Virus record (IMG/VR): IMGVR_UViG_3300012662_000013
Span: 43,405 to 107,404 of that record
Length of the DNA: 64,000 bases
Strand: one strand, 5' to 3'
Origin: a virus
Taxonomy: Duplodnaviria; Heunggongvirae; Uroviricota; Caudoviricetes
Below the pieces are notes generated by a model. That model did no database searches. It was not told the DNA's origin and worked only from the letters and a program-made list of their open reading frames with translations. This document shows, one piece after another, positions 1-64,000 of the stretch (its first letter is position 1; each line of letters begins with the position of its first letter). The translations under genes were made by a program, and so were the position numbers.

Positions 1-2584
1 AGATATTACTAATTTTTCAGGCAGTATTTATGATTATGAGGTATTTTCGCCTTAGTATGCTATATATAACTTTCAAGGCATTGATTTATTAGGTGTAAAA
101 AAAATCACTTTTTTTCAAGAGCGTTTTGTTGATTATGATAAAGTATATAATGGTAAAAATGAATTAATTTAGACCTACGATGAAGATCCAAATATCTTTT
201 GTAAAAATATAAAACTTTGTTTTGTAGATTTACAAGATACTACTAAAGACTTATATTATGTAGGTATAAGTGCGCCACAAGGTTTATCATTAATTTACGA
301 TACAGATTCTATTATCTTAAAAGGTGTTTTTTATTATGCCAATAAAGATATTTTAGATAAAAAAAATTGTGTTTGTTATTGGTATAAATAGAACCCTGCG
401 ATATTATCGGGGGATGAAAAATATGACAAAATTGCCGGGCCAGGCTGGGAATTAATTGATGATAAAACAAAAGTTAGTTTTAATGAATTAACTGTTTCTG
501 GCAAAGATGTCTATCAATAGATAAGATATAAATTAGTTGTAATTTATAATTCATCAGTGACATTAAGTAAAGATGTTAGAGTTGTTAAATATTATAATGA
601 ACGTTTTACAATAATCCGCAATGATGTGAGCGATACAGAAGTTAAATTAGAAATCGTAGATGGACGCGAAAAGATAGAAATGGCAGATTGGTATGTCGAC
701 CTTATGGATGGCTCATACTTAGCTTTAGATAAAGATGCTAGTTCAATTGATGTATCTAAATATTTAGATTATGGAACAGTAATGTTTTATACTGTTAGTC
801 TATTGGAAGACGGTAATTATGTACCATGTGAGTATAAATTAACTAATTATCAATCTGATATTTCAGTAAGAGTAATATTTAATGGTAATGATACTTTTTA
901 GTACGATAAAAATAACAGTATTACAGTAGATTAGTCAGAATCAGAAATGATTATTACTCCAACAATTACTGTTAATAAAGATAATATAGGTATTAAAACA
1001 GTTACTTGGTATTCGCCTGATGGAGGATAGCTATTTGAATACCCTACTACTAAAATAACTAATTCAATGATTTCTAAATTATGGGTTAATACTAGTGATA
1101 ATTCAGTTCATTTTAATATTCGACAAAAACGTATTTCTAATTATACAAATAATACATTAATTTTAAAAGTTATTACCTTAACTGATAAAGAATATTATTT
1201 TAATAAAACTATTTATTTTAGTAAATAGGGTGAGTATGATTTAAATGGTAGAGACTATACTTTTATAATTAAACAATGTGATGAAAATGGAAATGAAATT
1301 TCTAAACGACCATTAAATAAAGTTGGAGATACTTATAATCCTATTTATTTTAAAGCTGAATTACGATTAGATGGAGAAATTATTACTGCTGATACTAAAT
1401 ATAAAGATGAAGATGGAAATATATTAGGGAGTTATGATTTAACTTTAAAACGTACAGATATTCACGTTTCTAGTGAAAAACTTACAGATACTATCTATAA
1501 AGTTAATAGTTTTATTGAAGATAAAGAAGGATAGTATTTTATTAAATTTAGTTTAACAGTTGGTATTAAAGGAAAAACTGAAGGTACTAAAGTATTAAAT
1601 TATTGGCAACCCATAATGGTTAGTGAAAATATTGAAGTTAATAATATAAAAGAAATAAGTATTCCTGATAGAATTACATATGATAGTTCTGGAACTGCAA
1701 GTTATCATTCATTAAATGCTATTTCATTTATTTATTATTGTAATAAAGTAAACGTATAGTTAATTGGACCTTATAGCTATTCAATGACAACTAATTTATT
1801 TTTATATCCTTTAGAAGAAGATGGTAAAAAAACAGGATATTATAAATTAGTGCCTACTTCCACTTTTGGAGGAGCTTATTTTGCTGAAGAAACTGATACA
1901 GTAGATACTTCTCCTATGGGAGCTATCTATATTACTATCCCAACTGATAGATATGGAGATAGTACTATTAGATATTTAATTTATCCAGTAGTAATGCTAA
2001 TAGAACGTGACGGGAATGTTACTGATGTAGAAGAAGATGATGGCACTGATATCACTGTAGTAGATGAAGAGAATCCAGAATTTACTAAGCCTATGAAACC
2101 TAGTTTTTCTCATTAGGGTGGTAAATATGATTAGACAACTAGAGATTAGGAAAATGAAAGTAAATGGAAAGAATACGTAGGCGGAAAAACTTATATAGGT
2201 GATACTTGGGAAAAACAGCGCAAAATTCCTGTTGAAAAACCAGTAGAACCTAAAGATCCTATTGTTACTTAGAGTTTATAGTTATTAACTGAAGAACTAA
2301 ATACTAGTGGTTATGTTTCTGGATTATATTAGTATGATAGTGATGATATACCTACTAATATTTTACGTGCTGATGGCCTTGTTAGATTAGGTGGAGATAA
2401 ATTAGTTATTGATATAGATGGAAATTTAAAATTAAATGAAGAAACTCCTAGCAATATATTAACTATAGCTAGATTATTGAATGAACTAACTTCTAATTTA
2501 GATTTTAAACAGGAATTAAGTAATAATATAGTTCCACCCCCTTAGAAAAATATTAAAATACGTAATTGGTATATTGAAGAATGA
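1..2584 (+). CDS. Large virion structural protein (tail fibre/baseplate-like), 5'-partial; >=15 in-frame TAG read as sense; ends TGA 2582-2584
   Basis: Frame 2 is open from nt 2 to 2584 with only TAG interruptions. ORFs 557..901 and 1784..2116 are same-frame pieces. A hairpin terminator follows. Confidence 0.6.
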
Positions 2585-2613
2585 TGGATTTTTATCCATC
2601 ATTCTTTTTTTTT
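2579..2613 (+). terminator. Rho-independent terminator (gaatgatggat/atccatcattc stem plus T9)
   Basis: Perfect 11-bp stem followed by a T-run directly after the TGA stop. Confidence 0.7.
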
Positions 2614-2690
2614 ATTTGGACCAAAATAGTATGTTTACAATATATAATTTTTAAAAATAAATAGAAATAAGAGTTAAAGGAGGTCAATAA

Positions 2691-5600
2691 ATGGCAACAT
2701 CTACAATAAATGTAAATAGAGTATATCCGCCTATAGTTAATAGCTCAATTCCAGCATATTTAGCTACTGCGGAATCTTTAAATATAAATTTTTCTTTGCC
2801 TAAATCATTGAATTATGATGATGTAAAAAATATTTCAATTAAATTTAGCCAATAGTCAAATAATAAAAGTGTAGTTAATACAGATGTTTATTATGATGGA
2901 ATTATTTATATGGAAAAGCCTACTACCTCTACTAATGGAATATATACAGTTACTGTAAAAAATTCGGATATAAAATTAGGAGATACCGTTGGTTGGGTTT
3001 CCAATACTTTTTATAAAATCCAAATCCGTTTTGGATATAGTAAATTAGATTATGAGAAAAACAAAATTGCATTTTTTAAATGGAAAAAAACACAAACATT
3101 AATAAATGGATTTTCAGAATGGTCTAATGTAATAATTACTAAAGCAATAGAAGAACCTATTGTAAATATTTTAAATAATAGAGAAATAACTAATCTTGAT
3201 GTTGGTTTTATATTAACCAAAAGTGAAAATGTAGAAACAACAAGATTTCCTAAATTTTAGGGTGGTTATCATTGTGCTGCCGAAGAACCTATGGATAAAT
3301 ATCGTTTTAGATTATATGAGGGTTCTTACACTAGTACAAATTAGCCTACAATTGATCCTTATTTGTCTAGCGATTGGTTATAGTTCAATGGTGGCGGCCA
3401 AGATTACTATACAGGATTGGTTGAATATAGTTTTAATAGATAGTTAGACTATTTGGGCCATAAAACTTATTCAGTAGTTTTAGATGTAATTACTGCTAAT
3501 GGGTATCAAAAATCTTCTGAATTTTATAATTTTACTATTACTGAAAATTATTTAAAATAGCTAGAGTCTTTAGTTTTTATTGTTAAAGATAATAGTGGAG
3601 ATACTACAATTTAGCAAAGATTATTTAATACAAACGAAACTAGCTTTGAAACTTATAAAAGTTATTTTAATATTGATGGAGAAAATCCTACATTCATTAG
3701 AGGATATTTTAATGATTGTATTGAAAATGGAATAAGCTATAAAACTGGCGATATTGTTTATAGAACTGGCACAGTTGGCATAGATGCTAAAGAATATATT
3801 TTATCTCGTGATACTAGAATTAACGCTGTTGAAAATTTCAGCCATAATATAAGAGCTGATGAAAATGCCAGTTTAGAAATTTATATAAAAAATAATCCCT
3901 ATAAAGTAACAGAGCATACTGTTGATACTACTATTACTGGGGATAAAATAGAATATGATAAAGTAGTTTTAAAATATTAGCCTCTTGACGGAACTTTTAT
4001 TTTATCTAGAGCTTGTGAAAAAGATAATTATACTTAGTGGGAAGATATAGCTTAGTTTGATTGGTATAATGAATCTAATTATGATAATGAATTAACTTTA
4101 TTATACGAAGATTTTACTGTTGAGAGTGGCGTTAAATACAAATATGCTTTACAGAAAAAAAATGTCGCAGGACTTAGAAGTGCGCCAAAATATGAAGCCT
4201 CTGATATTGATACTTCTCCGGCACATTGGTCTAATTTTTAGTATAGCTATATTTATAATAATGGTATTCAAGTTCGTTTAAATTTTGATTGCAAAATAAA
4301 TAGTTATAAACATACTACTTTATTCCAAAAACAAGATAGTTTAAATTCTAAATACCCTATTATATTACGAAATGGTCTTGCACATTATGCTGAATTTTAG
4401 TTAGGAGCTAAAATTTCTTTGCTTAGTGATGAAGATTCTTCTTTTTTAATGCGTAATGATGCGAAAGGCGGTTATTACCATAGTTGGTATGGTGACATAG
4501 TTATCTCAAAAGATAAATATATAGAGAATTTTACGCGAGATTTACAAGCACCATATAATAATAAATTAACATTGGGGCAATATATAGATATTGATGCTTC
4601 AGTTTTTAATACTTCTCCTACCAATAATAATATTTATATGGAGCGTATTTATCGTCATTGGGTAGAAGAATTCCTTAATGATGGTGGATATAAATTATTT
4701 AAATCAGCTACCGAGGGCAATCATATTGTTACATTAACTAATGTCTCTTGGACGCCACAAGCATCTTTGGGAAGAATGATTTATGATTTTAATTCTACTG
4801 CATATGAAGTAGCAGAATTTAATTGTGATAATATTAAATTATATAATATAAATCCTTTAACGACTTTATCTAATAATTCTAAATTAGCTATTCAAGATGC
4901 TAATACTAAAAATAAAGTAATTATTGGTCAAGTAGCTAGAACATTTAATGGATAGTTAGAGAAAGAAGTAAAAGGTAATTCATTAAAAATTATTTCTAAT
5001 CCTAAATTTAATGAAAAATATGATAACATTTATGAAGCTATTAAATTATAGGAAGAAATTGAAATTAGTGAAGAGAAGAAATACACGTTAATGAAGGTAC
5101 GAACTATTTGGGTAGAGCAATATCCTAAATTAAGTTTAAAAAATAGAATTGAATATTTAAAACATCAAAATGGATTATCAATGATAGAACAATTAGAAAA
5201 TGCAGTTGAATTATTACGTTGTGAATAGTTATTAAAAGAGTATGAAAAAAATCAAACTAATATAATAACTATGATAATAAATAATAAAGAAATTTCTATG
5301 ATGCCTAGCCGTATATACCATATTGATGATATGAATTTACAATCTATGTATTTAAAATTTACTCGTCCTGTTTTAATAAATTATATTGCTGAAATAGAAG
5401 AAGAAGATTATTCAGAAATGGTTACAGTGGCTACTCGTGAATTTGTTCAATGGGGACAAATAGGTGGAGTATTTACCGATACTAAAGATATATTAGATAA
5501 TCATCAATTTTTCAGAAATGATGATACTAATATTGTTAATGAAAATTATAATTATAGTTTGTACTCTACTCGAAATATTATGGAAGTATTAAAAGAAAAA

Positions 5601-6110
5601 ATACATACTTCTATTTTAAATGATTATAGCGGAGAAAAAATAAATTCTTCTTTTGAAATTTTATATAATAAAATAAATGAATTTTTAGATAAAATAGATG
5701 ATGATACAAATTCTATTGAAGATTTATTAATTGAAGGTACTGAATTATTAGAAGAATATCGTCCATTATCAGGATTAGTTTTAAATGATTAGACTGATGC
5801 TTGGATGAATGGTTCTGACCAATTAGTAGTTTATAACTTTAATGGTATAGAAAGCCTTGAAATTGAAGCTGATGCTAATACTGATATTGTTTTTGGTAGA
5901 AATAATGAAATTGATAGTAGCACTGGTTCTGTTTCTCCGGCGAATGAAGGTAATCATATTCGAGTTGGACCAACAAATAAGATAGTATTAAATCCTTTAA
6001 AAAGTACAATTAAATCATTGGAATTTGCACGTCCATCTTATGCTATCATTAATTATAAAGCTGTTTCTTCTCTAGAATTAAAAGGATATATTAATACAAA
6101 TGAGGAGTAA
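2691..6110 (+). CDS. Large structural protein (~1139 aa) with many in-frame TAG; ends TAA
   Basis: RBS aaggagg 8 nt upstream of ATG 2691. ORFs 2910..3260, 4419..4955, 5271..5792 and 5805..6110 are all same-frame pieces separated only by TAG. Confidence 0.6.
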
Positions 6111-6115: not shown

Positions 6116-9100
6116 ATGAGAGAATATCTAACTGATTCAAAATTCTTGTCTATGTTAGATGAGATGCGTATAAAGAAACATTATGCAAAAATTACTATAT
6201 TATCATTTGTAGATGAAAAGCCTTTACGAGAAATTCAAGGAATAGCAACAGCTGGCTCTATTACTGTTAATGGGCAAGCAGCATTACGCCGCACAATAAG
6301 TTTAACAGTAAGCGGAGTAGAAAATGAAAATGATATAAATAATATTGAAAATATAATTTCAATAAATAAAAAAGTAAAAATAGAAGTTGGGCTTGAAAAT
6401 CCATTTAAAGATTATAAAAATTATGGAGATATTATTTGGTTTCCTCTTGGAACTTATGTAATTAATCAAGCCACTACTTCTACTACAGCCTCTTCAGCAA
6501 ATATTTCTATTTCAGGCAAAGATAAAATGTGTATGCTTGATGGTACTTGCGGAGGTACACTACCTTCAGCAGTTACTTTTCATGAGACGCAATATGAAGA
6601 TGATAATGGAGACATTACAATAGAGCAAGTGCCTATATTTACAATTATTAAAGAATGTGTAACACATTTTGGTAAAGAACCAGAATAGAATGTTATAATT
6701 AACGATGTAGATATGACCGCAAAACTTAGTACAAAATATATAGGCCAAAATCCTATATGGTTTTCTAAAGATTATAAAAGTTTTGTGATTAGCGAGAATG
6801 CTCCTGAAGATGAAAATTTTTTACAACATAAATTTATTTATGGATAGGATGTTGGATATCAAGAAACAGATTTTACTTATCCAGGAGAATTAGTGTTTTC
6901 TGCTGGAGATACAGTAACTTCTGTTCTTGATAAAATTATAGAATCTTTAGGTAATTATGAATATTTTTATGACTTAGATGGGCATTTTGTTTTTTAGCAG
7001 AAAAAAAATTACTTAAATTATTATTATACTCCAATTACTTAGATTAATGATAATTATTATATAAAAGCTTTTTCTGATAGTAAATATTATTATACTTTTA
7101 TTGATGCAAAAGATGCTTTATCTTATTATAACAGTCCTAAATATGAAAATATTAAAAACGATTTTATTGTTTGGGGTGATAAAACCAATAGTAATGGTGT
7201 AACTAAAACTATTTAGTATCATTTAGCTATTGATGAAAAACCGCAAATTGATTTAGCTAATCAATATATGTGGGATATTACTAGAGGCAATGGTGACCAC
7301 GCATATTATTTATTTGAGTATGAGAAAAATGATTATAATTAGACTCCTGAGTAGAAAGCTATTGAATTAATTTATACTCAAAATCATAATGAAATTACTG
7401 ATAGTTCAATAGAAACTGCTATTAAAAAAGATGTAGTAAATAATATTTTACAGAATTATTCTTTTTATAACGGAGATTAGTTTATACTTTATTATAAAGT
7501 TACTTTTTCTGATTAGATAAGATATTATAAAGTTATATTATTAAATAATGAAATAATTGATTTTGTATATCTTGAGGATTTGACTGATATTATTGATTTT
7601 ACTCATTTAGCTTTTGGAGTTTATCCTAAGAAAGACGAAGAAGAGGAAGAAGAAGATAATGATTCTCCAGAAGATGAACCGATAGGTTATCCTGATAATC
7701 CAAATCTTCCAGACATAGACCCTGATTTTGGCATACCTGATTCTTGGGAAAGAAATTCTAATTCTACTAAATCTTAGACTTCGTTAGACCCTGATTTTGG
7801 GGCAAATCCACAAGATCCTTCAGACGACACTAAAGATGATTCTGAGGATAAAAAAGATGATACTACAAAGGTAAAATATAAAGAATTTTATTTAGTACAA
7901 AAAAGAATTATAGATAATATAGATGTTTTAGGATATTATAATAAAAAAGGCGAATGGATATAGATTTTTGAATTATCAGAAGGATTAAATTTAACTAATA
8001 TAAATAATTTAATTAATAAAGTAAAATAGAATTATTATTTAAAAATTATAAAAGATATAAATTTTGATGAAATTAATAAAGAGTATGATTTTAATTTTAT
8101 AAATCAAAATAATGTTTTATTAATTTCAAATACTGATTTATTAATCTATAAATTAAATTCTTATGATTCTCAAGGCAATAAAAAAGAATTTAATTATAGT
8201 ATTCCTAATGACTATTCAGAAATAAAAGATTCTGAAGATAAAATATTAATATCTAAAGAAGAACATAAAGAATTAATTAAAGTTTTATTAGAATACTATA
8301 AATCAAATAAAGATGATTTAATTGATGATATTACTTTAATTTATAATTATACTGATATAGATGATATTTCTGATAGTGATTCTTCTGATTCAGATAGTAA
8401 TAATCCTACCCCAAGAGACTCTAATAATAATGTTATGCCTTTAGCTACAATTGATCCTGATTTTGAAGTAAATCCTGGAGAGGAAAGTAGCTCAGATACT
8501 AGTTCATCTACTACTGACAACAAAAAAGGTAGCGATTTGTTATTACCTTTTTTAGATCCAGTAGATGGGAAAAAAGATTAGCTAAAAGTTTTAAAAGATT
8601 AGGAAGATATAATAAAGAAAATTTTTATTTTACGAGATAATGGGAATTATTCTTTAAATGAAATAATTGAAGAAATAACTAATGCTTATAACTCTAATAT
8701 CATTGATTTTTCAATTCTTCCTGAAAAAAGTAAAATTAAAATTATTACTTATATTCCAGAAGAGCCAGAGTTTGATTATGAAGATAATTTTTATTTTACA
8801 TTAATTGGAACTCCTTGCAATGAATGGCGCGAGGAACTATTTAGATAGGCTTTACTAAATAATGAAAATGGCTCTCAAAAGGGAGACTATGATGATGAAT
8901 TATTAGCTAAAATAGATAATGAATATTTATGGCGTAAACAATTATTTGATCCCTAGAATGAAACTTGGCATGAAGAATGGAATAACTAGATTGACTCGGT
9001 TAATTTGGATGAAGAAAAAATAGATACTTGGGATGGATGGAATCCAGCTATTTATATTGATCCTAGTTTAATTACTTATTGGTTAGATTTTATTGATGTT

Positions 9101-9562
9101 GATTAGTTAGTATCAAAATATTCTGTTAATAAGATAGGCCGGCGCACTAAAGCCTTGACTAAAACTAATATGAGTTTATTATATAAATTAGATGTGCCTG
9201 ATATTATTTTTTTTGAAAATACTGGTGAAGCAGATTTAATTTAGAAAATTGAAGAATATACTTTAGAAGGCCAGGCGTATTGTGCCCTAAAACCGGGGCA
9301 AATGAAACTATTTAGTTCTAGCGGAACAGGTAGTACAGCATTTGATTATATTCGAGAAATGCTTTATTAGTATTTAATTTATAATTTAACTGTTACTATT
9401 AATTGTACCCCAAGGTATTATTTAGAGCCTAATAATTTAATTTATATAGATGATAAAAAAAGTAATATTAAAGGTGAATTTGTTATAACTTAGTACACTC
9501 TTCCTTTAACTTATAATGGAAATATGTCAATTACAACAAATGAAGCCTTAACAAGAGTATAA
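6116..9562 (+). CDS. Large structural protein (~1148 aa) with acidic DPDFG-type repeats and a poly-Glu tract; many in-frame TAG; ends TAA
   Basis: RBS aatgaggag upstream of ATG 6116. Frame 2 is continuous to TAA 9560-9562 (ORFs 6116..6688 and 7580..7777 are pieces). Repeats IDPDFGIPDSW / LDPDFGANPQDP / IDPDFEVNPGEE. Confidence 0.55.
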
Positions 9563-9572: not shown

Positions 9573-10274
9573 ATGAGTATTGAATTAAAATAGATTGTTT
9601 ATAATCTTGAAGATTATGGAGGATCTGGTGGTTTAATCTCTACTAATAAAAATAATCATAATGAATTAATATATAGTATGGTTTATTAGAATAATGAAAA
9701 TGATTCTACAGAAACTACTTTAGTTGGCGATTTAGGATTAACTGATTATCTGGAAAATCGTATTAATATTTTTGATAAAAATATTTTAGCAAATTATACT
9801 AATGTAAAAAAAATAGGTATTTAGGCTCCTCCTGGAACTAAATTTACTTTTTCTGAATCAGTTACTCCAAATGCTGGACAATGGTTAATGATAGGTCGTA
9901 CTGGAATTTATGAATTAAATGATGATATAGTAATTAAATCATTACGATTTCAACATCCTAAAAATTATATTTTAAATAAAGAATTAAGTTAGGAATTATA
10001 GTCTAATGGAACAGCAATTATGAAACAAGCTAGAGATGAATTTTTAACTAAAGTAACTGAGTTAACTAAAAGCCAAGGGACAGTCCCAGATCGAACTGAA
10101 ACTGGTAATGACTATTGGATATAGTATAATAATCTCCATTAGCAATACGTTACTAAATACAGAAGCGGTTTAGGCTTGTATTTAAAAGGCAAAGCTGGAG
10201 TTTATGTTGATGGTTCTGAAGATGATTTATATAATATTATTATTGATTTTACTTATGGAGAAGAGGAGGGATAA
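9573..10274 (+). CDS. Structural protein (~233 aa), TAG-containing
   Basis: RBS aaggaggt upstream. Frame 0 is open to TAA 10272-10274. Confidence 0.5.
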
Positions 10275-10277: not shown

Positions 10278-12928
10278 ATGTATAGTTTTTATGGCGGACA
10301 AAAAGGTTAGGATTTTAAAATAACAAGAATATTTTCTAACCGAGCAATAGATATGGTTGGAGATTTATAGATGCGTTGGACTTCACCAGTAAATGTAGGA
10401 GATTATATATTTATTAATTATGGTGATCCTTCATTTATGAATGAAGAAACTTCTAACTATAATACCAATTTATAGATAGATTTAAAAGCCAGCGGTAAAT
10501 CTTTTACTAATTCATTATGGCAAAAAATTTATGTAGATAGAAATTTAACAATTTCTCCTGAGTTCCCTGAGAATGATAATAATATTTATGTTTTCTTAAA
10601 TTTAGATGAAAGTAATACTGAGGAATACGGTAATTCTTTATAGGAAGTATCAGATATTGAAAGCGAAGAATGTTTTGGGTTTGGATATAGATTAATTGCT
10701 TGTGTAACTGGTGTTACTCCTCGAATTTAGGTATTCCATTAGACAATAGATATTGAAGATGGAGATCCTTATGTTACTTTAAATTTAACTAACCCTGATA
10801 CTCCTAAAATTAAATTTTATTTACAACGTGGATAGTGCATTGAAGATGTTTATAGAAATATTGTAGGATCTTAGGAAGAACCTAATGCTTATTTATACAC
10901 TGATGGTAGAACTTATATAGATAAAAATGGTGAAACAAAAACAGCCACTTTAACTAAGCCTTAGTTGATATTTGATTTGCCAAAGGCCCCTACGTTTTAT
11001 TATGGTATGTTATTTGGTACAGGTCCTTTAAATTTTTATCATAATTTTGGTACTTTATCTAGTAGAGAATATTATTTAAACAATGATACATATAAGATTT
11101 ATAAGAAAGAAATACAGTTAATAACCAGAATTAGTGATTTTTTACATAGAATTTTATTAAATGATGCTGTAACTTATACTTTAGATGAAAGCTCTAAAGA
11201 TAAAGATACTGGTATTTATAGTAATCTTCAATTTGATGATATAAAACATTTTTATTATATTGTAAATAATAATTTTTTTAAAGAAGGCAGTAATTTAAAT
11301 AGATCATTTATATACGTTCAAGAAGAAGACAAAAATGTTATTTTTAATCCATTGTCTAATAAAAATGATGAAGTGACAAAAAATAATGAGAAAAAAATTT
11401 TAAAATTATATAAAGAATTAAAAAATGATTATCATTTATCTGTACGTCCTTATGAACGTTATAAAGAAGATGGTTCAAAAGAGTTAATTCCTTAGTATAT
11501 GTGGACAAATGATGATGCCACTGAAGAAGTTAATACTTATTTATTATCATCTTCTATTTTCAAATCCTTCCCTAATTCGTTATATCCTTTAGGAATTATA
11601 ATAAATGATTTAATAGAAAAATTATTTAGTATTATTGTAGAAGATGAAAATGGAAATCCTTCAATAAAAGAAAATTACATTACTTCTGATGTATCTTATT
11701 CTTTTGAAACTTATAATACTGCTGATTATTTAATTGGAGTATTAGCACAAGGTTCTTATTTAAATGAACATTATTATGATGTATCAAAAGCTTATAAAGC
11801 TGATTTTTATGTTAATGAACCTACTGGTAAATTTTATATTTTAACAAATATAAATGAAATTTATATTGAAGGAAAATATATCGGAGCTATTACCGCCCCT
11901 GCTCCTATTGCTACGACCCAAATGACTTCTAGTTTTTATTTTGATAAAAAGGAACAAAAATATGTAAAAAATCAAAATAAAGTTATTAGTAGTTTAACTG
12001 AAGGTATGGGAGAAAATATTTATCAAGAAGAATTCTTATTTAAATTAGTAAATGATCCTATTACCTTGACAAAAATAAAATAGGTTGTTAATGACGCAGA
12101 TTTTACAATCGGAAAACCTATTCCTTAGAATGAAAATGAATAGTTAGTAAACATAGAAGTTCCTATGCCTATCCATGTATTTACTCCAGGGAGTAGTGGA
12201 TTAAGTGTTTTAAATAATAAAGTAATATGGAATTCTACTAATTATGAAGGACCATTATTTTCTAAAGGAGATCTATTTTTCAATATAACACGATTAGAGG
12301 ATAATAATGCTAACCGTGGTGATGTTTATAGATATAATTAGCTTCCTACAAATACAATCGAAGAATAGAAAGCTATTTTAAAAGATACAATGACTAATAG
12401 TTGGGAATTAGTTGGGAATATAAAAGGTATTCCAGGTATTCCTAATCCTACTAAAATTGTAAATATTACTTTAATTCCTACAACAAATCAAAGTGATAAT
12501 TTTAAAATAACTTATTTAGGCAGTAGTAATACTAGTACTTTTAATTATAAGATAAATAAATCTCCTAATAATGGAGCAGAAGTTAATCCAACTCCAACAT
12601 TAATGGCTATAATTCAAAATATAATTAATGGTAATAATATTTCAGTATCAAATAATGAATTAATTTTACCTGATTTATTAGTAGATACTAATAATGGAGA
12701 AATTTTATTAATAAATTACTTTGCTTCAGAAAATTCTACCCCTGAAAGTTATTGGGGAATTTATACTAATAATTCTTGGAATATAATGTCTTTCTCAGGT
12801 GGCGGGTCTTCATTCTTAAATGATTAGCCTAATAAATTAACGGAATAGCATAAACAATAGGGTTATTCAGTTGATTATTTAGAAACAAAATTTTTAAATA
12901 GCCATTTAATCTGGCATGATTGGGATTA
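10278..12928 (+). CDS. Large structural protein (~883 aa), TAG-containing
   Basis: RBS gaggaggg upstream. ORFs 10965..11495, 11499..12083 and 12390..12827 are in one frame joined by TAG. Ends TAA 12926-12928. Confidence 0.55.
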
Positions 12929-12942
12929 AGGAGGAATTTTAA

Positions 12943-13350
12943 ATGGATGCTCAATTAGTAGCGCAAATATTTCAAATTTGTATTATTCCTTTACTTGGAA
13001 TTTTAACAACGTTTTTAATTACTTGGATTAAATCTAAGAAAGATGCTTTAAAACAACAAACAGATAGTGAATTAGCTAAGAAATATTTGGATATGCTTGA
13101 TAATACAATTACTGACTGTGTTATTGCAATGAATCAGACTTATGTTAATTCATTAAAACAACAAGGTAAATTTGATAGTGAAGCACAAAAGAAAGCTTTT
13201 ACTGATGTATACAATAAAGTAATTGCTATTCTTGGCCAAGATGCTATTGAATATTTAAATTCGGCTATTGGAGATTTAAATGAATATATTACTTCTAAAA
13301 TTGAAAAAGAAGTCAGCTCAAATAAAATTACTCCAACAGAAGAAAAATAA
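12943..13350 (+). CDS. Holin, LL-H-like family (single N-terminal transmembrane segment)
   Basis: 135-aa uninterrupted ORF with RBS ggagga. N-terminal transmembrane segment, then NQTYV..LKQQGKF..KKAF..Y pattern typical of LL-H-type holins. Followed by a terminator. Confidence 0.55.
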   Translation: MDAQLVAQIFQICIIPLLGILTTFLITWIKSKKDALKQQTDSELAKKYLDMLDNTITDCVIAMNQTYVNSLKQQGKFDSEAQKKAFTDVYNKVIAILGQDAIEYLNSAIGDLNEYITSKIEKEVSSNKITPTEEK

Positions 13351-13944: not shown

Positions 13945-13957
13945 GGAGTAATGGAAT

Positions 13958-14194: not shown

Positions 14195-14221
14195 TATATT
14201 TTATTAAAGGAGGACATTTTT

Positions 14222-15312: not shown

Positions 15313-15332
15313 TAAGAAAAGAGGAAAAATAA

Positions 15333-15752: not shown

Positions 15753-15757
15753 TTACA

Positions 15758-56528: not shown

Positions 56529-59072
56529 ACATTTGTTCTGCTAATTCAGCAATTTTAGAACGATGAATTTGTTTTAATTCAACTTCACCATATATATTAT
56601 TATTACGTAATACCTCTGATGCACGACGCATACCATTATTTAATCCAGAAAAATTAATATCATCAACCTGAGTTTTTAAATCGCCGTCGATAATACAAAT
56701 ACTATCTTCGCCAATACGTTGAAGGCTTAATTTCATAAGGCCAATATCCATATTCTACGCTTCTGAGATATAAATACCTGCACGCATACCTGTTGTGTCA
56801 TAACCACGAATATCTGATAAGGGTAGCAAAACTAATTTATTTTCATCAATTAATTTTTCCACCATCATTTTATCTCCAAGCTTACTACTTAATAGATTAC
56901 CGATTTGGCTATCTAAAAGTTTTTCATCACGAGTGCCGGGGTAAACAAAACTTTATAACTTTCATTATAAAACTGACTATATCTTAATTTAAACTATTTT
57001 TTAAAGCAAGATAAATATTATGTTTGCGCTTTAAGAATCTCGGACAATTGTTGTATAAAATATCTAAAATATGAAGAACTTGTAAACGTCCTCGCCATTG
57101 TGTGTGCCAAGCACTGGTATAGAAATTTTTATTCTTTTTTTCAATTCCTGTTAAAGAATTTATTAAATTCTAAAAATCTATCACTTCTGTTTCGTGGTAA
57201 GCGGTATAATTAATAGAGACATCTGTACTATGATTAGAACTACAATATAAAGAACCATCTCCATCAAAAAGGCCTAAAGCAAATGCCGGTTGGAATTCTA
57301 AAGGAATTTTTTCATATGGAATATGGTTTACATTATAAGTTTTTTTAGGAATAATATTATAATTAGCTAAATCCTAAAAAATTTGTTCATCAGTAAATTC
57401 TATTGAACAACAAGTACTATTAGGACGAATATTATAAATTATTTTACAATCTAATTGTAAATCTTCTTTAAACTTTTCTAATATCTCTTTGTCACATTCC
57501 TGTAGCTATAATCTAATACGTCCTGTTGTTTTTAATTTATCAACACAGCCATCAGTAAATAAAAAACCTAACCAGTAAGCTTTTTCTGGTTTATCTATAA
57601 TAGAAAAATAATTACTATTAATACGTCGATTGACTCTATTTAATGTTTTTAATTCAAGATTCATTTCAGACATTAAATTTTTGATAGTTTCTTCTGAGGC
57701 ATTAAAATATTTAGCAATATCTTTTAAAAAAGAACCTTTATTTAACATTTCTTTAAGTTCTTTTTTTTGCTCTAATGACCATTCTCTTTTTTTTCTTCCA
57801 CCTCTAATAGTAATATTATTCTCTTTCAGAAGTTTATTTATTTGTCGTCTATTAAAAGAGGGATATTCTATTAATAATTTATTAATTGAATATCCATTTA
57901 GATATTTTTTTATAATTTCTTCTTTCAAACTTATTCCTCTTTTATTATATATATAAAATTTTAAGGCATAAGTTTTTCAGTTCTTGTCCAAAATTTTTCA
58001 GTTTAAATCCCTTGCGCTTCGGCCTAAGCCTACTCTACTTACTTCCACTGTATAGTGTGCTTTCGATAGTCGATGAGCCTTTCCCTATTCGGGACTTGGT
58101 TGCTGATTGTCCAATCCAATTAATTTTTAAACATTCACACTTCGATTTATTTCATTCGTATGTTGTAGTTTAATCGGCTCTAAGGGTGTTCCAGCAATTC
58201 ACAAGGTTTTACTTGAGCCTTACCCTTTAAATTAACCCAAGTTTTGCGGAATTTTTAGTAGCAACAGTATTACAAAATACAATTATTTTATCAATTTTAT
58301 TTCTTTCAAGAGCATTTAATAAAAATGCTAATGATAAAAATGTTTTACCTGAGCCGGCTGGCCCTTTAATCATAGTAATTTTATTATTTAAAAAGCTATC
58401 AACAGCTAAAGCTTGATAAGGATCATTTTTAAAGGGTTTTACATTACCAAAATAGGTAGAATTTAAATTACCATAAGAAATAGTTCTATATGTATCACCA
58501 TCCCATACTATTTTGTCTATTATTTCTTTCTCTTGGTTATAAATAATAGCGTATTGGTTAATTAATAAATTAAATTTATTAATTTTTAAATTTTGATATA
58601 GTTCAATAATTTCATCTTCATTTAAACTTACTTCAATATATCCGCTATATGGGTCATGACGTTCTTCCTCAATAGATGATACATTTGATAAAAATAATTT
58701 AGCAATACATTTTAAAGTTAAATCATTAGTAATAAAATTATCAATAGGATGGCTCTTATTATTTTTATTATAACTTAATGCAGTTGCTAATATTTTCATA
58801 TCATTAGTTATTGATAAATCATATTTTCGTATAGGTTTTATCATTTTTTCTTTATAGATAATTACTTGACATAAGTCAGGGTTATCATTTAAAGCTCTTA
58901 ATAACTAACGAGCAGTATATTTTGTATTAGCATCTTTATTAGCTGATGTTTTAATATTTTCTAACTCATCTAATGTAATAGATGAAATTATAATCTATTC
59001 ATTTTTATCTTCCAATAAAGTTCCCTTAGTTAATAAACTACAAGTGTCATAAAAATTATATATCATCTTCAT
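56527..59072 (-). CDS. phoH: PIN-domain plus PhoH-like ATPase (YlaK-type) split by a group I intron; TAG at the Q of DEAQN
   Basis: N-terminal PIN domain (..FYDTCSLL..ITLDELENIK.., 2 TAG), PhoH Walker A GPAGSGKTFLSLA (ORF 58227..58844 ends ..NSAKLG). Exon 2 from ~56949: FVYPGTRDEKL..YISEA[TAG]NM..KLSLQRIGEDSICIIDGDLKTQVD.. (ORF 56527..56751). Confidence 0.65.
56950..58235 (-). mobile_element. Group I intron in phoH carrying a double-motif LAGLIDADG homing endonuclease gene
   Basis: The exon-1 frame hits TAA 2 codons after KLG. 58040-58230 is structured non-coding sequence with a gatagtcgat-like core. Confidence 0.5.
56984..57928 (-). CDS. LAGLIDADG homing endonuclease (~314 aa; AYWLGFLFTDGCV and LGLFDGDGSL), 3 in-frame TAG
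   Basis: ORF 57506..57928 (TTG start, RBS aagagga) continues through TAG to TAA 56984-56986. N-terminal HTH resembles that of the dnaB-intron endonuclease. Confidence 0.6.
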
Positions 59073-60872: not shown

Positions 60873-62171
60873 TTATTCCTCCTTTATTAATTCATTAAAT
60901 TCTTCTAAAGAAATAATTTCTTTTACAAAATTATAATCTACTTTACTCATTACGTTTAAACTTTGTTTATCATTTAGTATTTTATAATAATAAAAAGTAG
61001 CTAAGTATTCAGCTTTATGGCATTGACAAATTGTTGTAGTTCGATGACATAAATCTCCTGTCATCTAATAGCTACATCCAGCGCACCAGCTACATCCTGT
61101 CTCTATCGGGCATTTTAAGCATTTGTCTTCTGAAATATTACGCTTAGTATATTTTGAAAATTCTTCTAAAATTTGTTTTTCTTTTGGCAAAGTTCCAATT
61201 CCTCTATCTACATTTCCTAATATTAATGGTTCAACTTCATTTCCCAAAGAACTTTCCATAAAGCGCAAGCAAGAATAAATATCTCCTTTATAATCAAGTG
61301 CATACATACTAGCTGTAGTTCCGCACCATTGGGTATCTAAATCCCATTCTAATAATTTTTTATATCCATAAGGATTAAAAATCCTAAAAAATATTTTATC
61401 ATTATAATTATTATTTTTAATCCATTCAGCTACTTTTTTTAATTCTTGATAATACAATTTTATATCTTCGATATTTTTCCAAACATTTTCAAAAACACAA
61501 TTAGCATAAATATTTTTAAAACCTAAAGACATAATATTAGTTAATCCTTGATAAACATAATTTACATTATCTGGGCTAAAAGTAATTTTTGTACTATTAA
61601 AACCTAATCTTTTGGCATCTAAAGCAGCAGCTACTGCTAAATCATAGCTACCTTGTCCATTAGGAAATAAACGACATTTATCATGTAATTCCTTACATCC
61701 ATCTAGAGTAATATTTAGACTAAGTAAATTTTTATATTTTTTTATAAATTTCTAAACGGCGGGAGTGAAGTATAAAACTCCATTTGAACAAATATTATAA
61801 ATATGAAATAATTGCCAAGGACTATTATATGGAATTTCATTTAATTTTGTTTCAAAATATTCACATATCTAATCTATTAAATTAATTTCTAACAGAGGCT
61901 CTCCCCCAATAAATTCTAAAGTTAGTCCTCTTACTGTTTTATCACAAAAAGGACTATTTTCGATGGTTCTATTATTAAAGACATAATCAATAAATTTTTT
62001 AGCAGTTTCAAAAGACATTTTGTGATGTCCTTTATTTTGCTAATAACAATATGAACAACATAAATTACAGTCATCAGTTACCTAAAAGGTTAAAGATTTC
62101 ATTTGTCTCTATGGTAATTCAGGAAATAAATTAATTATATATGTATTATATTCATATCCAGGATTTAACAT
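60873..62171 (-). CDS. Radical SAM enzyme with C-terminal SPASM domain (anSME/peptide-maturase-like, ~432 aa), 4 in-frame TAG
   Basis: CNLCCSYCY (Cx3Cx2C), GGEP, ..LDGCKELHDKCR.., then the SPASM Cys cluster CLKCPIETGCSWCAGCSY..CHRTTTICQCH (ORFs 61065..61532 and 60873..61064). RBS aaggag. Confidence 0.65.
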
Positions 62172-62588: not shown

Positions 62589-62590
62589 TA

Positions 62591-63973
62591 TTACTTCTTC
62601 AGATAATTACCAAGAACTTCCTTCAAATTAATACCTGTTGCTTCAGAAAGACCATTCATAATTTTATCTGCTGTCTGCATTACATCAGACACAAGCTTGG
62701 TGTTTCCACCTTCACCATAAACGGTAATCTTATCAACATTATTAAGAGGTTCAGCGGCATTTTTAACAACTTCAGGCAATGCCTTGAGATACATTTCAAG
62801 GACGGAAGCTTCGCCCATCTTCTTCTGAGCTTCAGCTTTCTTTTCGATAGCAGATGCTTCTGCTTCACCAACTGCGGCAATACCAGCAGCCTTCTGTTCG
62901 GCAGCATACTTTTCTGCTTCTGCTCTAGCCTTCATAGCTCGTGCTTCCTGCTCCATTTCATAAGCTTTAGCTTCTGCTTCCTTCTGACGCTTAATCAGAT
63001 TTGCAGCAGCCTGCTGTTCAGCAGCATACTTATCAGCATCAGCCTGCTTACGAACAAGAGCATCAAGTTCATATTCCTTCAGCTGAATCTGCTTCTGCTT
63101 CAACTCAGCTTCGCGTTCTGCCTTAGCGATATTAGCATCAGTAGCTGCTACATCACGAAGCTTACGCTGATTCTCAGCCTCAATGCTTGCCGCAGCATCA
63201 GCTTGGGCCTGGCGAGTATCAGCTTCCTGCTTCAACTGAGCCTGCTTAATAGCAAGGTCATTGTTGCGAGTAGCCATATCTTCAGCAGCCTTAACTCGTG
63301 CGTCATTAGCTTCTTTATTATTGGCAGCTTCAGCAATCGCAATTTCACGTTGAGCGTTAGACTTTGCAATCATTGCATCCTTACGAATCTGTTCAACATT
63401 GTCAATACCGAGATTGGTAATTACATCATTATCATCAGAGAAATTCTGAACATTAAATGTAATTAATTCAAGACCCAACTTCGCCAAATCCGGCACACTA
63501 TTTTCCTGGACTCTCATGGAGAATTCCTTGCGGTCATTAATCATCTGAACAAGCCCAAGAGTGCCAACAATCTCACGCAAGTTACCTTCAAGGAGGTCAT
63601 TAACCTTATTCATAATTTCATCATGCTTTGCATTAAGGAAGTTCTGTGCGGCGACTTCAATCAATTCAGGCGTCTGACTAATTTTAACAATCGCGGTTGC
63701 ATCTACTTTAATATTAATGAAATCATTAGTAGGAATAGATGTTTTTGTTTTTACATCAATCTGCATTGCCTTGAGCGAAAGCTTATCAATCCTTTCAAGG
63801 AATGGAACTCGCAATCCTGACTTACCTACGACAATTCTTGGATTTTTACACAAACCTGATACAATATAAGCTACATCAGGCGGAGCTTTAAAATATCCAA
63901 GTCCAATGATAACACCGACGAGAATTACTCCAAGAATAATCCAAATGTGAGACAAAATTGCTGACAAAATCAT
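62591..63973 (-). CDS. SPFH/band-7 flotillin-like membrane protein (YqiK/FloT-like) in a ~45-48% GC island; no TAG codons
   Basis: N-terminal transmembrane segment, SPFH domain, then a long Ala/Glu/Lys-rich coiled-coil (..AEQKAAGIAAVGEAEASAIEKKAEAQKK..). RBS aaggag. Base composition is distinct from the ~28% GC flanks. Confidence 0.7.
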   Translation of the reverse strand: MILSAILSHIWIILGVILVGVIIGLGYFKAPPDVAYIVSGLCKNPRIVVGKSGLRVPFLERIDKLSLKAMQIDVKTKTSIPTNDFINIKVDATAIVKISQTPELIEVAAQNFLNAKHDEIMNKVNDLLEGNLREIVGTLGLVQMINDRKEFSMRVQENSVPDLAKLGLELITFNVQNFSDDNDVITNLGIDNVEQIRKDAMIAKSNAQREIAIAEAANNKEANDARVKAAEDMATRNNDLAIKQAQLKQEADTRQAQADAAASIEAENQRKLRDVAATDANIAKAEREAELKQKQIQLKEYELDALVRKQADADKYAAEQQAAANLIKRQKEAEAKAYEMEQEARAMKARAEAEKYAAEQKAAGIAAVGEAEASAIEKKAEAQKKMGEASVLEMYLKALPEVVKNAAEPLNNVDKITVYGEGGNTKLVSDVMQTADKIMNGLSEATGINLKEVLGNYLKK

Positions 63974-64000
63974 TTTATATTCTCCTTAATATTTAATTTT

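What the first reader, a model, noticed from the sequence alone, without database searches (positions are those of the whole stretch)
1..64000. Genome-wide reassignment of TAG, most likely to glutamine (code-15-like phage)
Under the standard code the + strand structural region (1-16.3 kb) breaks into 60-190-aa fragments. Every break is TAG. With TAG read through, five consecutive genes of about 860, 1139, 1148, 233 and 883 codons appear. Each has a Shine-Dalgarno sequence and ends in TAA or TGA, followed by hairpin terminators.

Independent evidence for the amino acid:
- TAG occupies the invariant Gln of the YIGQ[ST/A] motif in three unrelated GIY-YIG homing endonucleases (22.44 kb, 43.46 kb and 50.19 kb). 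The same motif is spelled with CAA in the 24698..25588 endonuclease and in the host gene at 43.72 kb.
- TAG occupies the Q of the PhoH DEAQN motif (56.83 kb).
- TAG is the single stop bridging the two NrdD ORFs.
- TAA and TGA remain stops.
Basis: partly seen in the sequence, partly recalled or inferred. Interest (0 to 1): 0.8.

Follow-up and report, generated by a model that had tools for sequence, protein, structure and literature searches.

The report
Gut phage reads TAG as glutamine
This 64-kb piece of a roughly 193-kb human-gut phage uses the stop codon TAG as a glutamine codon, most heavily in its virion genes, and a near-identical contig carries a TAG-reading tRNA; the case is clear, but this kind of phage recoding is already well described.

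Summary
The five large + strand ORFs (4,263 codons) contain 79 in-frame TAG and no TAA or TGA. Reading TAG as sense raises coverage by ORFs of at least 200 aa from 0.34 to 0.75; reading TGA as sense changes nothing.

The interpretation (TAG = Gln) also holds.
- In the 90%-identical relative L014, 73 window TAG codons align to TAG, 23 to CAA/CAG and 6 to other codons.
- Gln is the best-fitting amino acid in all 16 relatives tested, by 37-77 log-likelihood units in the structural block.
- TAG sits on conserved Gln columns in DnaB, RecJ, NrdG and PhoH (DEAQN).
- A tRNA with a CUA anticodon lies about 14.8 kb beyond the window on a contig 99.9% identical to the window's genome.

- Usage is not uniform. 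22 of 66 genes, including DnaE, gyrase, ligase and primase, are TAG-free.
- NrdD has two TAGs, and the second aligns mostly to Ile/Leu.
- The GIY-YIG Gln is common but not invariant.
- Hairpin terminators follow only three genes.

This is code-15 phage recoding as already described (Borges et al.; Peters et al.; phAss-1), so it is a new member of a known kind. The suppressor-tRNA slot, which varies between relatives and is flanked by homing endonuclease genes, is the most interesting by-product.

The parts
2..2584 (+). Virion (tail-region) gene, truncated at the window start. 860 codons, 17 in-frame TAG, ends TGA, followed by a hairpin terminator at 2576-2607.
   Evidence: Aligns over 861 aa at 87% to relative L014.
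2691..6110 (+). Virion gene of 1139 codons with 16 in-frame TAG. Preceded by an AGGAGG Shine-Dalgarno sequence and ends TAA.
   Evidence: Full-length alignments to relatives: 1139 aa at 94%, 1133 aa at 71%, 1206 aa at 46%.
6116..9562 (+). Tail protein of 1148 codons with 21 in-frame TAG.
   Evidence: Matches phrog_32343 (E = 1.9e-45) and the tail family phrog_1887. Twelve IMG/VR relatives found.
9573..10274 (+). Virion gene of 233 codons with 7 in-frame TAG.
10278..12929 (+). Virion gene of 883 codons with 18 in-frame TAG.
12943..13350 (+). Holin of 135 aa. It has no TAG among 10 Gln codons, although it sits inside the recoded block. A terminator follows.
   Evidence: Matches the holin family phrog_13712 (E = 2.6e-28)..
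13513..16309 (+). Five small late genes carrying 24 in-frame TAG in total. The block ends at a bidirectional terminator at 16314-16351.
31463..33205 (-). RecJ-like exonuclease with 11 in-frame TAG. The TAGs at 32243-32245 and 32084-32086 fall on columns that are Gln in 63/74 and 59/74 relatives.
   Evidence: The Pfam DHH domain (aa 64-207) matches across three TAGs, and RecJ_OB also matches. Column counts.
35892..35894 (-). TAG in the C-terminal half of DnaB (SATqLN), on a column that is Gln in 61 of 68 relatives and TAG in the other 7.
56755..56757 (-). TAG at the Gln of the PhoH Walker-B motif. The window reads SEAqN against DEAQN in the homologue.
   Evidence: Alignment to PDB 3b85. Coordinates.
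19827..21953 (-). NrdD of 708 aa with two TAGs, at 21858-21860 (aa 32) and 20724-20726 (aa 410). This gene shows read-through but is not evidence for Gln.
   Evidence: Full-length match to PDB 9d3x (E = 6.6e-124), where aa 410 aligns to Leu. In relatives the column is I 48, L 4, Q 3, TAG 2.
22398..22400 (-). TAG in the YIGqT motif of the GIY-YIG homing endonuclease at 21990-22460, which has 5 TAG in all.
43461..43463 (-). TAG in the YIGqA motif of the GIY-YIG homing endonuclease at 42648-43544 (7 TAG). This endonuclease gene interrupts another GIY-YIG-domain gene (43702-44502 and 42272-42550).
50196..50198 (-). TAG in the YIGqS motif of the GIY-YIG homing endonuclease at 49542-50252 (5 TAG), which interrupts gyrB.
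23094..28128 (-). DnaE-type DNA polymerase in two halves split by a homing-endonuclease insert. It has no TAG among 54 Gln codons. The single TAG near 25.7 kb lies past the exon end.
   Evidence: DnaE is also about 1% TAG in 33 TAG-recoded relatives.
45175..51924 (-). TAG-free replication genes: DNA ligase, GyrA and GyrB. The only TAGs in this span are inside the intervening homing endonuclease gene.
60873..62171 (-). Radical-SAM protein of 432 aa with 6 in-frame TAG.
   Evidence: The gene calls on the ENA contigs already read this gene through as 432 aa, whereas the JGI calls are fragmented.

Best explanation
The window is about a third of a roughly 193-kb, 29% G+C tailed phage from the human or animal gut. 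Its host is probably a low-G+C Bacillota (Firmicutes) bacterium. The phage decodes TAG as glutamine (genetic code 15).

**Shown.**
- TAG is a sense codon in 44 of 66 genes. TAA and TGA are the only terminators.
- The amino acid is Gln.
- The phage lineage carries its own class-I tRNA with anticodon CUA, in a tRNA cluster about 14.8 kb to the right of the window.
- A conserved subset of replication genes avoids TAG completely.

**Inferred.**
- A host enzyme charges the tRNA(CUA) with Gln, either GlnRS directly or GluRS followed by GatCAB. All variants seen have a 1:72 mismatch, G73, U35 and A37, and from my own recollection these features favour Gln acceptance.
- TAG-free genes (DnaE, gyrase, ligase, primase, RNase H, dUTPase) can be translated by the unmodified host as soon as infection begins.
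- TAG-rich virion genes, lysis-associated genes and homing endonuclease genes give full-length protein only once the suppressor tRNA has accumulated. The code change therefore acts as a late-gene translation gate, as proposed by Borges et al.
For: **ORF structure.** 79 in-frame TAG against 0 TAA/TGA in 4,263 codons. Long-ORF coverage is 0.34 under the standard code and 0.75 with TAG as sense, with no gain from TGA. In relatives of the virion block the same measure goes from 0.00-0.14 to 0.84-0.90.

**Amino acid.**
- At window TAG codons, L014 has TAG 73, CAA 18, CAG 5 and others 6. The reverse comparison gives window Gln at 29 of 38 L014 TAGs.
- Gln leads the log-likelihood ranking in L014, L016, L018 and L020 by 37-77 units. 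It also leads in the 12 replication-block relatives tested, 4 of which have no in-frame TAG in the aligned genes.
- TAG falls on near-invariant Gln columns: DnaB 61/68, DnaB N-terminal half 55/68, RecJ 63/74 and 59/74, NrdG 42/47. It also falls on the PhoH DEAQN Gln.
- Pfam domains match across TAGs at full profile length.

**tRNA.**
- ARAGORN and Rfam find tRNA(CUA) at L008 6543-6617.
- L008 overlaps L001 at 99.92% identity, and L001 matches the window at 99.96%.
- A CUA tRNA occupies the same slot in 12 of the 14 related loci examined (L110 and L112 showed none).

**TAG-free set.** 22 genes with 207 Gln codons have 0 TAG, against a window-wide TAG share of 27% (log10 P = -28.8). DnaE is 1% TAG and RecJ 32% TAG across 33-34 recoded relatives.

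**Independent assemblies.** The same sequence at over 99.9% identity was checked in five of the at least 23 contigs that carry the identical flotillin protein, which excludes assembly error.

**Literature.** The same pattern is described in 10.1101/2021.08.26.457843 and PMC10607447. TAG = Gln was confirmed by proteomics in crAss-like phages (PMC9523058).
Against: - There is no protein-level evidence for this phage.
- The suppressor tRNA was found on a 99.9%-identical contig, not in the window itself. About 100 kb of the genome was never seen, so release factors, aminoacyl-tRNA synthetases and further suppressor tRNAs are untested there.
- In distant relatives (45-50% identity) most window TAG positions align to non-Gln residues (about 6-8 Gln out of 25-30). 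The call for Gln rests on close relatives, conserved columns and likelihood, not on a majority vote at every depth.
- A few TAGs sit on columns conserved for another residue: NrdD 410 Ile/Leu, RecJ 105 Gly, RecJ 131 Asp.
- The tRNA(CUA) body is not similar to the phage's own tRNA-Gln(UUG). Its Gln identity is inferred, not classified by an isotype model.
- The holin is TAG-free, which does not fit a simple rule that lysis genes are gated.
- Expression timing and the host's genetic code are inferred only.
Confidence: 0.92

Rival explanations
1. TAG is a sense codon but stands for an amino acid other than Gln, such as Lys, Glu, Trp, Tyr, Leu or pyrrolysine.
For: - ARAGORN labels the tRNA 'Pyl', but only because of its anticodon.
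- Lys and Glu are the next most common residues opposite TAG in distant relatives.
- NrdD aa 410 aligns to Ile/Leu.
Against: - Gln beats the runner-up by 37-77 log-likelihood units in the virion block, and it ranks first in all 16 relatives tested.
- The exchange with sense codons is mainly with CAA, which is two substitutions from TAG. Single-step neighbours (TGG, TAT, TTG, AAG, GAG) are rare.
- The tRNA is class I with G73. By my own recollection of tRNA identity rules, this excludes Leu, Ser and Tyr types and is not the Pyl tRNA architecture.
- No pyl genes were seen, although they were not searched for specifically.
Confidence: 0.03
2. The host itself reads TAG as a sense codon, so the phage simply matches its host and there is no phage-driven code switch.
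For: The host is unidentified and its code was not examined. The closest flotillin homologues in genome bins come from uncultured Clostridia or Mollicutes bins, which look like mis-binned phage contigs.
Against: - 22 genes, mostly core replication genes, avoid TAG completely (log10 P = -28.8), and that avoidance is conserved in relatives. This is unexpected if TAG were an ordinary codon in the host.
- The phage carries its own tRNA(CUA).
- The same clade contains members with no gain from TAG read-through and members that look TGA-recoded.
- From my own knowledge, no bacterial lineage with TAG = Gln is known. The literature assigns standard-code hosts to such phages (10.1101/2021.08.26.457843).
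Confidence: 0.04
3. The TAG-interrupted genes are pseudogenes of a decaying element, or artefacts of sequencing or assembly.
For: Under the standard code the virion block is fragmented, and the JGI gene calls are short pieces.
Against: - Only TAG interrupts the frames, never TAA or TGA.
- 73 of 103 TAG positions are conserved as TAG in a 90%-identical relative, and the rest mostly become Gln codons.
- The reading frames are conserved end to end down to 46% identity.
- The same sequence at over 99.9% identity was checked in five of the at least 23 contigs, from several studies, that carry the identical flotillin protein.
Confidence: 0.01
4. Suppression is deliberately incomplete. TAG stays a leaky stop in competition with host RF1, so many TAG-bearing genes yield mostly truncated products and full-length protein is a minor, regulated fraction.
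For: - No RF2 gene or RF1 inhibitor was found in the sequence available (a weak negative).
- Only one CUA tRNA gene was seen.
- Some final TAGs lie 5-8 codons from the true stop, where either outcome would be tolerated.
Against: Structural genes carry 16-21 TAGs each. Even 90% read-through per codon would leave about 10-20% full-length product, so efficient suppression is needed to build virions (inference). TAG supplies 45% of Gln codons in the virion block.
Confidence: 0.1

Closest known systems
Alternatively coded gut phage clades of Borges et al. (Jade, Sapphire, Agate; also crAss-like and Lak), 10.1101/2021.08.26.457843
   Same: - TAG is read as Gln and the phage encodes a suppressor tRNA.
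- Recoding is heaviest in structural and lysis-region genes and variable or absent in replication genes.
- Jade, Sapphire and Agate are the named new clades with large genomes (means of about 150-210 kb; per-clade host not checked).
- Clades mix codes 11, 15 and 4. I also see no-TAG-gain and TGA-type relatives here.
- Intron homing endonucleases inside early genes are recoded.
- Many suppressor tRNAs are expected to escape standard detectors.
   Different: - Membership of a named clade could not be tested, because the large terminase lies outside the window.
- No RF2 gene was seen in the parts examined.
- The holin here is TAG-free, whereas that paper stresses recoding of lysis genes.
Phage phAss-1 / proposed Phassvirus (OQ749652; PMC10607447)
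   Same: - A human-gut phage with TAG-interrupted structural genes read as Gln.
- It carries tRNA-Sup(CTA) genes and no dedicated synthetase.
- Its predicted hosts are Clostridia.
- Its DnaE is the best annotated match to the window's DnaE.
   Different: - DnaE identity is only 40% at the amino-acid level.
- The phAss-1 genome is 136 kb, against about 193 kb here.
- phAss-1 has three suppressor tRNA genes, against one seen here.
- There is no detectable DNA similarity to any INPHARED record.
crAss-like phages with proteomically validated code 15 (Peters et al., PMC9523058)
   Same: The same reassignment, TAG to Gln, by a phage infecting a standard-code host.
   Different: An unrelated lineage that infects Bacteroidota and has about 100-kb podovirus genomes. 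Protein-level proof exists there but not here.
E. coli supE-type amber suppression (tRNA-Gln with a CUA anticodon; own knowledge)
   Same: A CUA-anticodon tRNA inserts Gln at UAG in competition with RF1. The weak or mismatched 1:72 pair and G73 are acceptor-end features that GlnRS prefers.
   Different: The tRNA here is phage-encoded and is not a mutant of the resident tRNA-Gln. It is used for hundreds of obligatory sense positions, not for rescuing mutants.
Phage T4 SegB, a free-standing GIY-YIG homing endonuclease in the tRNA gene cluster (own knowledge)
   Same: In relatives, a GIY-YIG endonuclease gene sits directly beside the tRNA(CUA) gene, and the tRNA allele differs wherever the endonuclease gene is present. 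This fits endonuclease-driven preferential inheritance of a tRNA region.
   Different: No cleavage site or homing was tested. Here the cargo would be the code-changing tRNA itself.

Membership tests
Phage stop-codon recoding, genetic code 15 (TAG = Gln) | Conserved protein-coding genes are interrupted by in-frame TAG only, and reading TAG through restores full-length homologous proteins. | tested here: met
   79 TAG against 0 TAA/TGA in 4,263 codons. Full-length alignments to relatives. Pfam domains span the TAGs.
Phage stop-codon recoding, genetic code 15 (TAG = Gln) | TAA and TGA are kept as terminators. | tested here: met
   All 66 genes end in TAA (52-53) or TGA (13). TGA read-through gives no gain in ORF coverage.
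Phage stop-codon recoding, genetic code 15 (TAG = Gln) | TAG positions align preferentially with Gln in homologues. | tested here: met
   Gln ranks first by likelihood in all 16 relatives tested. Conserved Gln columns occur in DnaB, RecJ, NrdG and PhoH.
Phage stop-codon recoding, genetic code 15 (TAG = Gln) | The phage encodes a suppressor tRNA with anticodon CUA. | tested here: met
   L008 6543-6617, on a contig 99.92% identical to the window's genome in their overlap, at a window-equivalent position of about 78.8 kb. It is not inside the window.
Phage stop-codon recoding, genetic code 15 (TAG = Gln) | Recoding is biased toward late, structural and lysis genes, and a subset compatible with the standard code remains. 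| tested here: met
   The TAG share of Gln codons is 45% in the virion block and 0% in 22 genes. The pattern is conserved in relatives. Expression timing itself was not measured.
Phage stop-codon recoding, genetic code 15 (TAG = Gln) | Gln is incorporated at TAG in the proteins. | not testable with these tools
   This needs LC-MS/MS of virions or metaproteomes.
Phage stop-codon recoding, genetic code 15 (TAG = Gln) | The host uses the standard code. | not tested
   The host was not identified. Genome-bin hits appear to be mis-binned phage contigs.
Named clades Jade / Sapphire / Agate (Borges et al.) | Placement within the clade on the large-terminase phylogeny, with at least 95% bootstrap support. 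| not tested
   TerL is outside the window and was not retrieved.
Proposed genus Phassvirus (phAss-1) | High nucleotide identity and synteny with phAss-1 (82-86% among members). | tested here: not met
   No megablast match to any INPHARED record. DnaE is only 40% identical at the amino-acid level.

The most novel reading that the evidence does not exclude
The code-changing tRNA may be a mobile, swappable cassette. One fixed slot lies between a conserved promoter-like sequence and tRNA-Leu(UAA). In phages that share 86-90% DNA identity in the flanks, this slot holds at least three mutually unalignable tRNA(CUA) bodies.
- Type A: followed by a GIY-YIG endonuclease gene.
- Types B and B': no endonuclease gene.
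- Type C: preceded by a different GIY-YIG endonuclease gene. It has aberrant D and T loops and is invisible to ARAGORN.

All of them keep a 1:72 mismatch, G73 and the loop YU-CUA-AA, and all serve genomes in which TAG = Gln. This would mean that homing endonucleases drive turnover of suppressor-tRNA alleles, as T4 SegB does for the T4 tRNA region. The turnover could be under pressure from host nucleases that target tRNAs. It would also mean that a minimal Gln-identity set is what selection preserves.
Probability: 0.3. Interest if true: 0.55.

Novelty: new member of a known kind. Interest (0 to 1): 0.3.

Why it matters
**Practical.** Standard-code annotation shatters this phage's virion genes. 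Coverage by ORFs of at least 200 aa is near 0 in the structural block of relatives under code 11. The clade has more than 230 contigs in IMG/VR, so the window and its relatives need translation table 15.

**Biological.** The window adds a well-resolved example of late-gene-biased TAG-to-Gln recoding. It comes from a clade of roughly 190-kb gut phages that also contains members with no TAG gain and members that look TGA-recoded, so the clade could be used to study how code changes arise. It does not change the current picture, because the phenomenon, its mechanism and its proposed regulatory role are already published.

Tried and rejected
- **Megablast of window 1-20000 against INPHARED phages:** no match.
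- **Exact 40-mer from the window start in IMG/VR:** no match.
- **Walking along an IMG/VR contig** with a 21-mer from the end of a stored stretch: it only re-found the same stretch.
- **Exact search for type A tRNA(CUA) in JGI metagenome contigs:** no match.
- **Exact search for type B tRNA(CUA) in GTDB genomes:** no match. The tRNA could therefore not be placed on the very contig that carries the window, and no prophage or host copy was found.
- **Rfam search for group I introns around the endonuclease inserts** (21.9-59.5 kb, E up to 0.1): nothing. The inserts are called introns only by inference.
- **tblastn with remembered E. coli RF1, RF2 and GlnRS fragments** against 2.15 Mb of fetched DNA: no hits.
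- **Flotillin as a host marker:** the best hits are bins that are probably phage contigs.
- **NrdD as evidence for Gln:** rejected, because the key TAG aligns to Ile/Leu in most homologues.
- **A strict GIY...YIGx regular expression:** it caught too few endonucleases to be a strong test.
- **Not used:** structure prediction and the large protein-database searches, because the question was settled without them.

Full report
**1. What the window is**

The window is 64 kb at 29.4% G+C.
- The + strand from 1 to 16.3 kb carries virion, tail and holin genes: tail families phrog_32343 and phrog_1887, and holin family phrog_13712.
- The - strand from 16.3 to 64 kb carries replication and nucleotide-metabolism genes. 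These include NrdD/NrdG, a DnaE-type polymerase, RecJ, primase, DnaB, ligase, GyrA/GyrB, RNase H, PhoH, a lysin, a radical-SAM protein and a flotillin.
- The flotillin protein is found, identical in sequence, on at least 23 independently assembled contigs. Two of them are 192,955 and 192,634 bp long. The five such contigs I aligned match the window at 99.94-99.97%.

The window is therefore about one third of a roughly 193-kb phage genome. One related contig is labelled human gut metagenome.

**2. Checking the observation**

- With TAA and TGA as the only stops, the + strand resolves into ORFs of 860 (truncated), 1139, 1148, 233 and 883 codons. They carry 17, 16, 21, 7 and 18 in-frame TAGs.
- Across these 4,263 codons there are 79 TAG and no TAA or TGA. 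In the other two frames TAG is only 20% of stop triplets, so log10 P is about -55.
- The fraction of the window covered by ORFs of at least 200 aa rises from 0.34 to 0.75 when TAG is sense. It does not move when TGA is sense.
- Shine-Dalgarno sequences precede all five starts.
- Terminator hairpins follow only 2584, 13350 and 16309, so that detail of the finding is only partly right.

**3. Which amino acid**

I fetched relatives from IMG/VR: 12 loci for the virion block and 80 of 232 loci for the replication block. I aligned them to the window with TAG masked.

*Virion block.*
- In the 90%-identical relative L014, window TAGs align to TAG 73 times, CAA 18, CAG 5 and anything else 6 times. Conversely, 29 of the 38 L014 TAGs that fall opposite a window sense codon align to window Gln codons.
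- The dominant exchange partner is CAA, which is two substitutions from TAG. This points to synonymy, not mutational proximity.
- I estimated substitution profiles from the same alignments. With these, Gln is the maximum-likelihood identity in L014, L016, L018 and L020, by 37-77 log units.

*Replication block.*
- Gln is again first in all 12 relatives tested. Four of them have no in-frame TAG in the aligned genes.

*Conserved columns.*
- TAG falls on near-invariant Gln columns in DnaB (61 of 68, the rest TAG), the DnaB N-terminal half (55 of 68), RecJ (63 of 74 and 59 of 74) and NrdG (42 of 47).
- TAG also falls on the Q of DEAQN in PhoH, aligned to PDB 3b85.
- Pfam domains run across TAGs at full profile length: DHH, RecJ_OB, Fer4_12, AAA_24 and GIY-YIG.

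- NrdD has two TAGs. The one joining the large ORFs (aa 410) aligns to Leu in three solved structures and to Ile in 48 relatives. Only a few relatives have Gln there.
- The Gln of YIGQ is common in these endonucleases but not invariant.

**4. The suppressor**

- The window has no tRNA.
- I used a tail-fibre-like fragment just beyond the right end of the window to fetch IMG/VR contig IMGVR_UViG_3300012662_000189 as locus L008. L008 is 99.92% identical to the window's genome over 8.8 kb of overlap.
- L008 holds a tRNA cluster: Thr, Gln(UUG), Tyr, tRNA(CUA), Leu(UAA) and Gly. The CUA tRNA is at L008 6543-6617, which corresponds to about 78.8 kb in window coordinates. Rfam's tRNA model also scores it, at 46.5 bits.
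- It is a class-I tRNA with a G1·A72 mismatch, G73 and the anticodon loop UU-CUA-AA.
- Relatives carry a CUA tRNA in the same slot.
- No release-factor or GlnRS-like gene was detected in the DNA I could reach. That search was weak, and about 100 kb of the genome was never seen.

**5. Pattern of use**

- Of the 66 genes I delimited, 44 contain TAG. The totals are 206 TAG against 546 CAA+CAG.
- TAG supplies 45% of Gln codons in the + strand block and 20% on the - strand.
- 22 genes with 207 Gln codons have no TAG at all (log10 P = -28.8). They include both DnaE halves, GyrA, GyrB, ligase, primase, RNase H, dUTPase, a nucleotide kinase, the flotillin and, unexpectedly, the holin.
- The avoidance is conserved. 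Across 33-34 TAG-recoded relatives, DnaE is about 1% TAG and RecJ 32%.
- Eight of the nine homing endonuclease genes in the window contain TAGs.
- A TAG-rich membrane protein (53702-54160, 4 of 6 Gln codons) sits next to the lysin.

This is the pattern reported by Borges et al. for alternatively coded phages. That paper includes the idea that in-frame stops delay production of intron-encoded endonucleases (10.1101/2021.08.26.457843).

**6. Mechanism**

*Shown.*
- TAG is sense and equals Gln.
- A phage-lineage tRNA(CUA) exists.
- A standard-code-compatible gene subset exists.

*Inferred.*
- Host enzymes charge the tRNA with Gln.
- TAG-free genes are expressed first.
- TAG-rich virion genes, lysis-associated genes and endonuclease genes need the accumulated suppressor, which gates late translation.

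*Unknown.* How competition from RF1 is handled.

**7. Comparison and novelty**

- The wider clade has more than 230 IMG/VR contigs, many of them 180-200 kb. It contains TAG-recoded members, members with no gain from TAG read-through and members that look TGA-recoded. This resembles the large mixed-code clades of Borges et al. Clade membership needs TerL, which I did not have.
- The best annotated DnaE match is phage phAss-1, a published TAG-recoded gut phage, at only 40% identity. Enterococcus and Bacillus phages follow. This points to a Bacillota host.
- The gene calls on the ENA contigs already read these genes through TAG.

The finding is correct and well supported, but it is a new member of a known kind.

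**8. By-products**

- The suppressor-tRNA slot holds three or more unrelated CUA tRNAs in relatives that share about 86-90% identity in the flanking DNA. Two of the types are linked to GIY-YIG endonuclease genes. One type is non-canonical: ARAGORN misses it, but it scores above the Rfam threshold.
- tRNA-Leu(UAA) is interrupted at the U34/A35 position in several relatives.
- ROOL and RAGATH-33 RNAs sit in the tRNA cluster.
- At least seven window genes are split by endonuclease-bearing inserts. One contig provides an insert-free lysin allele.

Noticed in passing
L008 6440-7760, L009 7170-7560, L010 450-1650, L011 5310-5650, L013 4620-5800, L114 about 8520-8594 (window-equivalent about 78-79 kb): The suppressor-tRNA slot varies between relatives whose flanks are 86-90% identical. 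Type A tRNA(CUA) has a downstream GIY-YIG endonuclease gene (L008). Types B and B' have none (L009, L011, L106-L108, L111, L115, L116). L010, L013 and L114 carry a non-canonical type C tRNA(CUA), preceded in L010 and L013 by an upstream GIY-YIG endonuclease gene (which has a TAG in its own YIGq motif); the upstream region of L114 was not examined. ARAGORN misses type C, but Rfam scores it at 38.9 bits. All types share a 1:72 mismatch and G73.
   Followed up: partly
L010 about 1595-2381, L011 5603-6385, L013 5753-6535, L114 8711-9493; shorter insert in L108, L110, L115 and L116: tRNA-Leu(UAA) is interrupted between U34 and A35, the position of the classic cyanobacterial and plastid tRNA-Leu group I intron. 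The insert is either about 740 nt (read only in L013, where its ORF has an HNH-like motif by eye) or about 290 nt. The gene is uninterrupted in L008, L009, L106 and L107. Rfam's group I model did not flag the insert.
   Followed up: partly
L008 5090-5679; also L009, L013, L110-L112, L114, L116. RAGATH-33 at L009 7545-7657, L010 2420-2532, L013 6574-6686: A full-length ROOL RNA (RF03087, about 320 bits) lies inside the phage tRNA cluster, between tRNA-Tyr and the suppressor tRNA. A RAGATH-33 RNA follows tRNA-Leu in several relatives.
   Followed up: no
window 24.5-25.7 kb (DnaE), 33.6-34.4 kb (primase), 36.4-37.5 kb (DnaB), 42.55-43.7 kb (GIY-YIG-domain gene), 49.2-50.4 kb (GyrB), 55.32-56.34 kb (lysin), 56.9-58.2 kb (PhoH): Seven genes are split by inserts that carry GIY-YIG or LAGLIDADG endonuclease ORFs. 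At least in DnaE, where I checked the junction, the downstream half has no start codon there (...GYAFSL|NHSLPYSF...), so splicing is implied. Even so, Rfam finds no group I intron at E up to 0.1. One GIY-YIG endonuclease gene has invaded a gene that itself encodes a GIY-YIG domain.
   Followed up: partly
window 55320-56337 compared with L006 17637-17651: Contig L006 (ERZ26858495) lacks about 1 kb here, and its gene call is an intact 430-aa CHAP plus Amidase_2 lysin. This insert-free allele defines the limits of the mobile insert that splits the lysin gene in the window.
   Followed up: partly
L001/L002 137-9988 (window-equivalent about 64-74 kb): Just to the right of the window lies a mostly TAG-free block. 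It encodes an 823-aa protein with a major-vault-protein shoulder domain, a DUF2828/DUF7788 protein (itself split by a GIY-YIG endonuclease gene), an SLH-domain protein, NADAR, two metallophosphatases and an AAA_33 kinase. An MVP-like protein, an adjacent flotillin and a nearby giant structured RNA make an unusual combination for a phage.
   Followed up: no
window 62591-63973 (-): The flotillin gene uses CAG 23 times and CAA twice for Gln, the reverse of the rest of the window. This suggests recent acquisition. Its closest hits in GTDB bins (83-93% identity) are contigs labelled Clostridia, Mollicutes or Clostridium MAGs. One is 163.9 kb long, and they look like mis-binned phage genomes.
   Followed up: partly
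L056-L059, L068, L073, L074, L092, L096, L098: Some relatives (45-56% identity in the RecD-like helicase used as query) gain 0.1-0.18 in long-ORF coverage when TGA, not TAG, is read through. The same phage clade therefore seems to contain TGA-recoded members alongside TAG-recoded ones and members with no gain from TAG read-through.
   Followed up: partly
L114 5881-6021, L116 7192-7332: In these relatives the phage tRNA-Gln(UUG) gene carries a 66-nt insert inside the anticodon loop. That is too short for a group I intron. Rfam still scores the gene as a tRNA across the insert.
   Followed up: no
window 12943-13350 (+) and 53702-54160 (-): The annotated holin inside the heavily recoded virion block has no TAG among 10 Gln codons. 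A small membrane protein next to the lysin is 67% TAG (4 of 6 Gln codons). If recoding gates lysis, the gate is probably this second protein and the lysin, not the holin.
   Followed up: no
window 59959-60870 (-): A 303-aa protein has an N-terminal half made of Cys/Ser/Gly-rich repeats (CSGDCSS-like) and 5 TAGs. It has no Pfam match.
   Followed up: no
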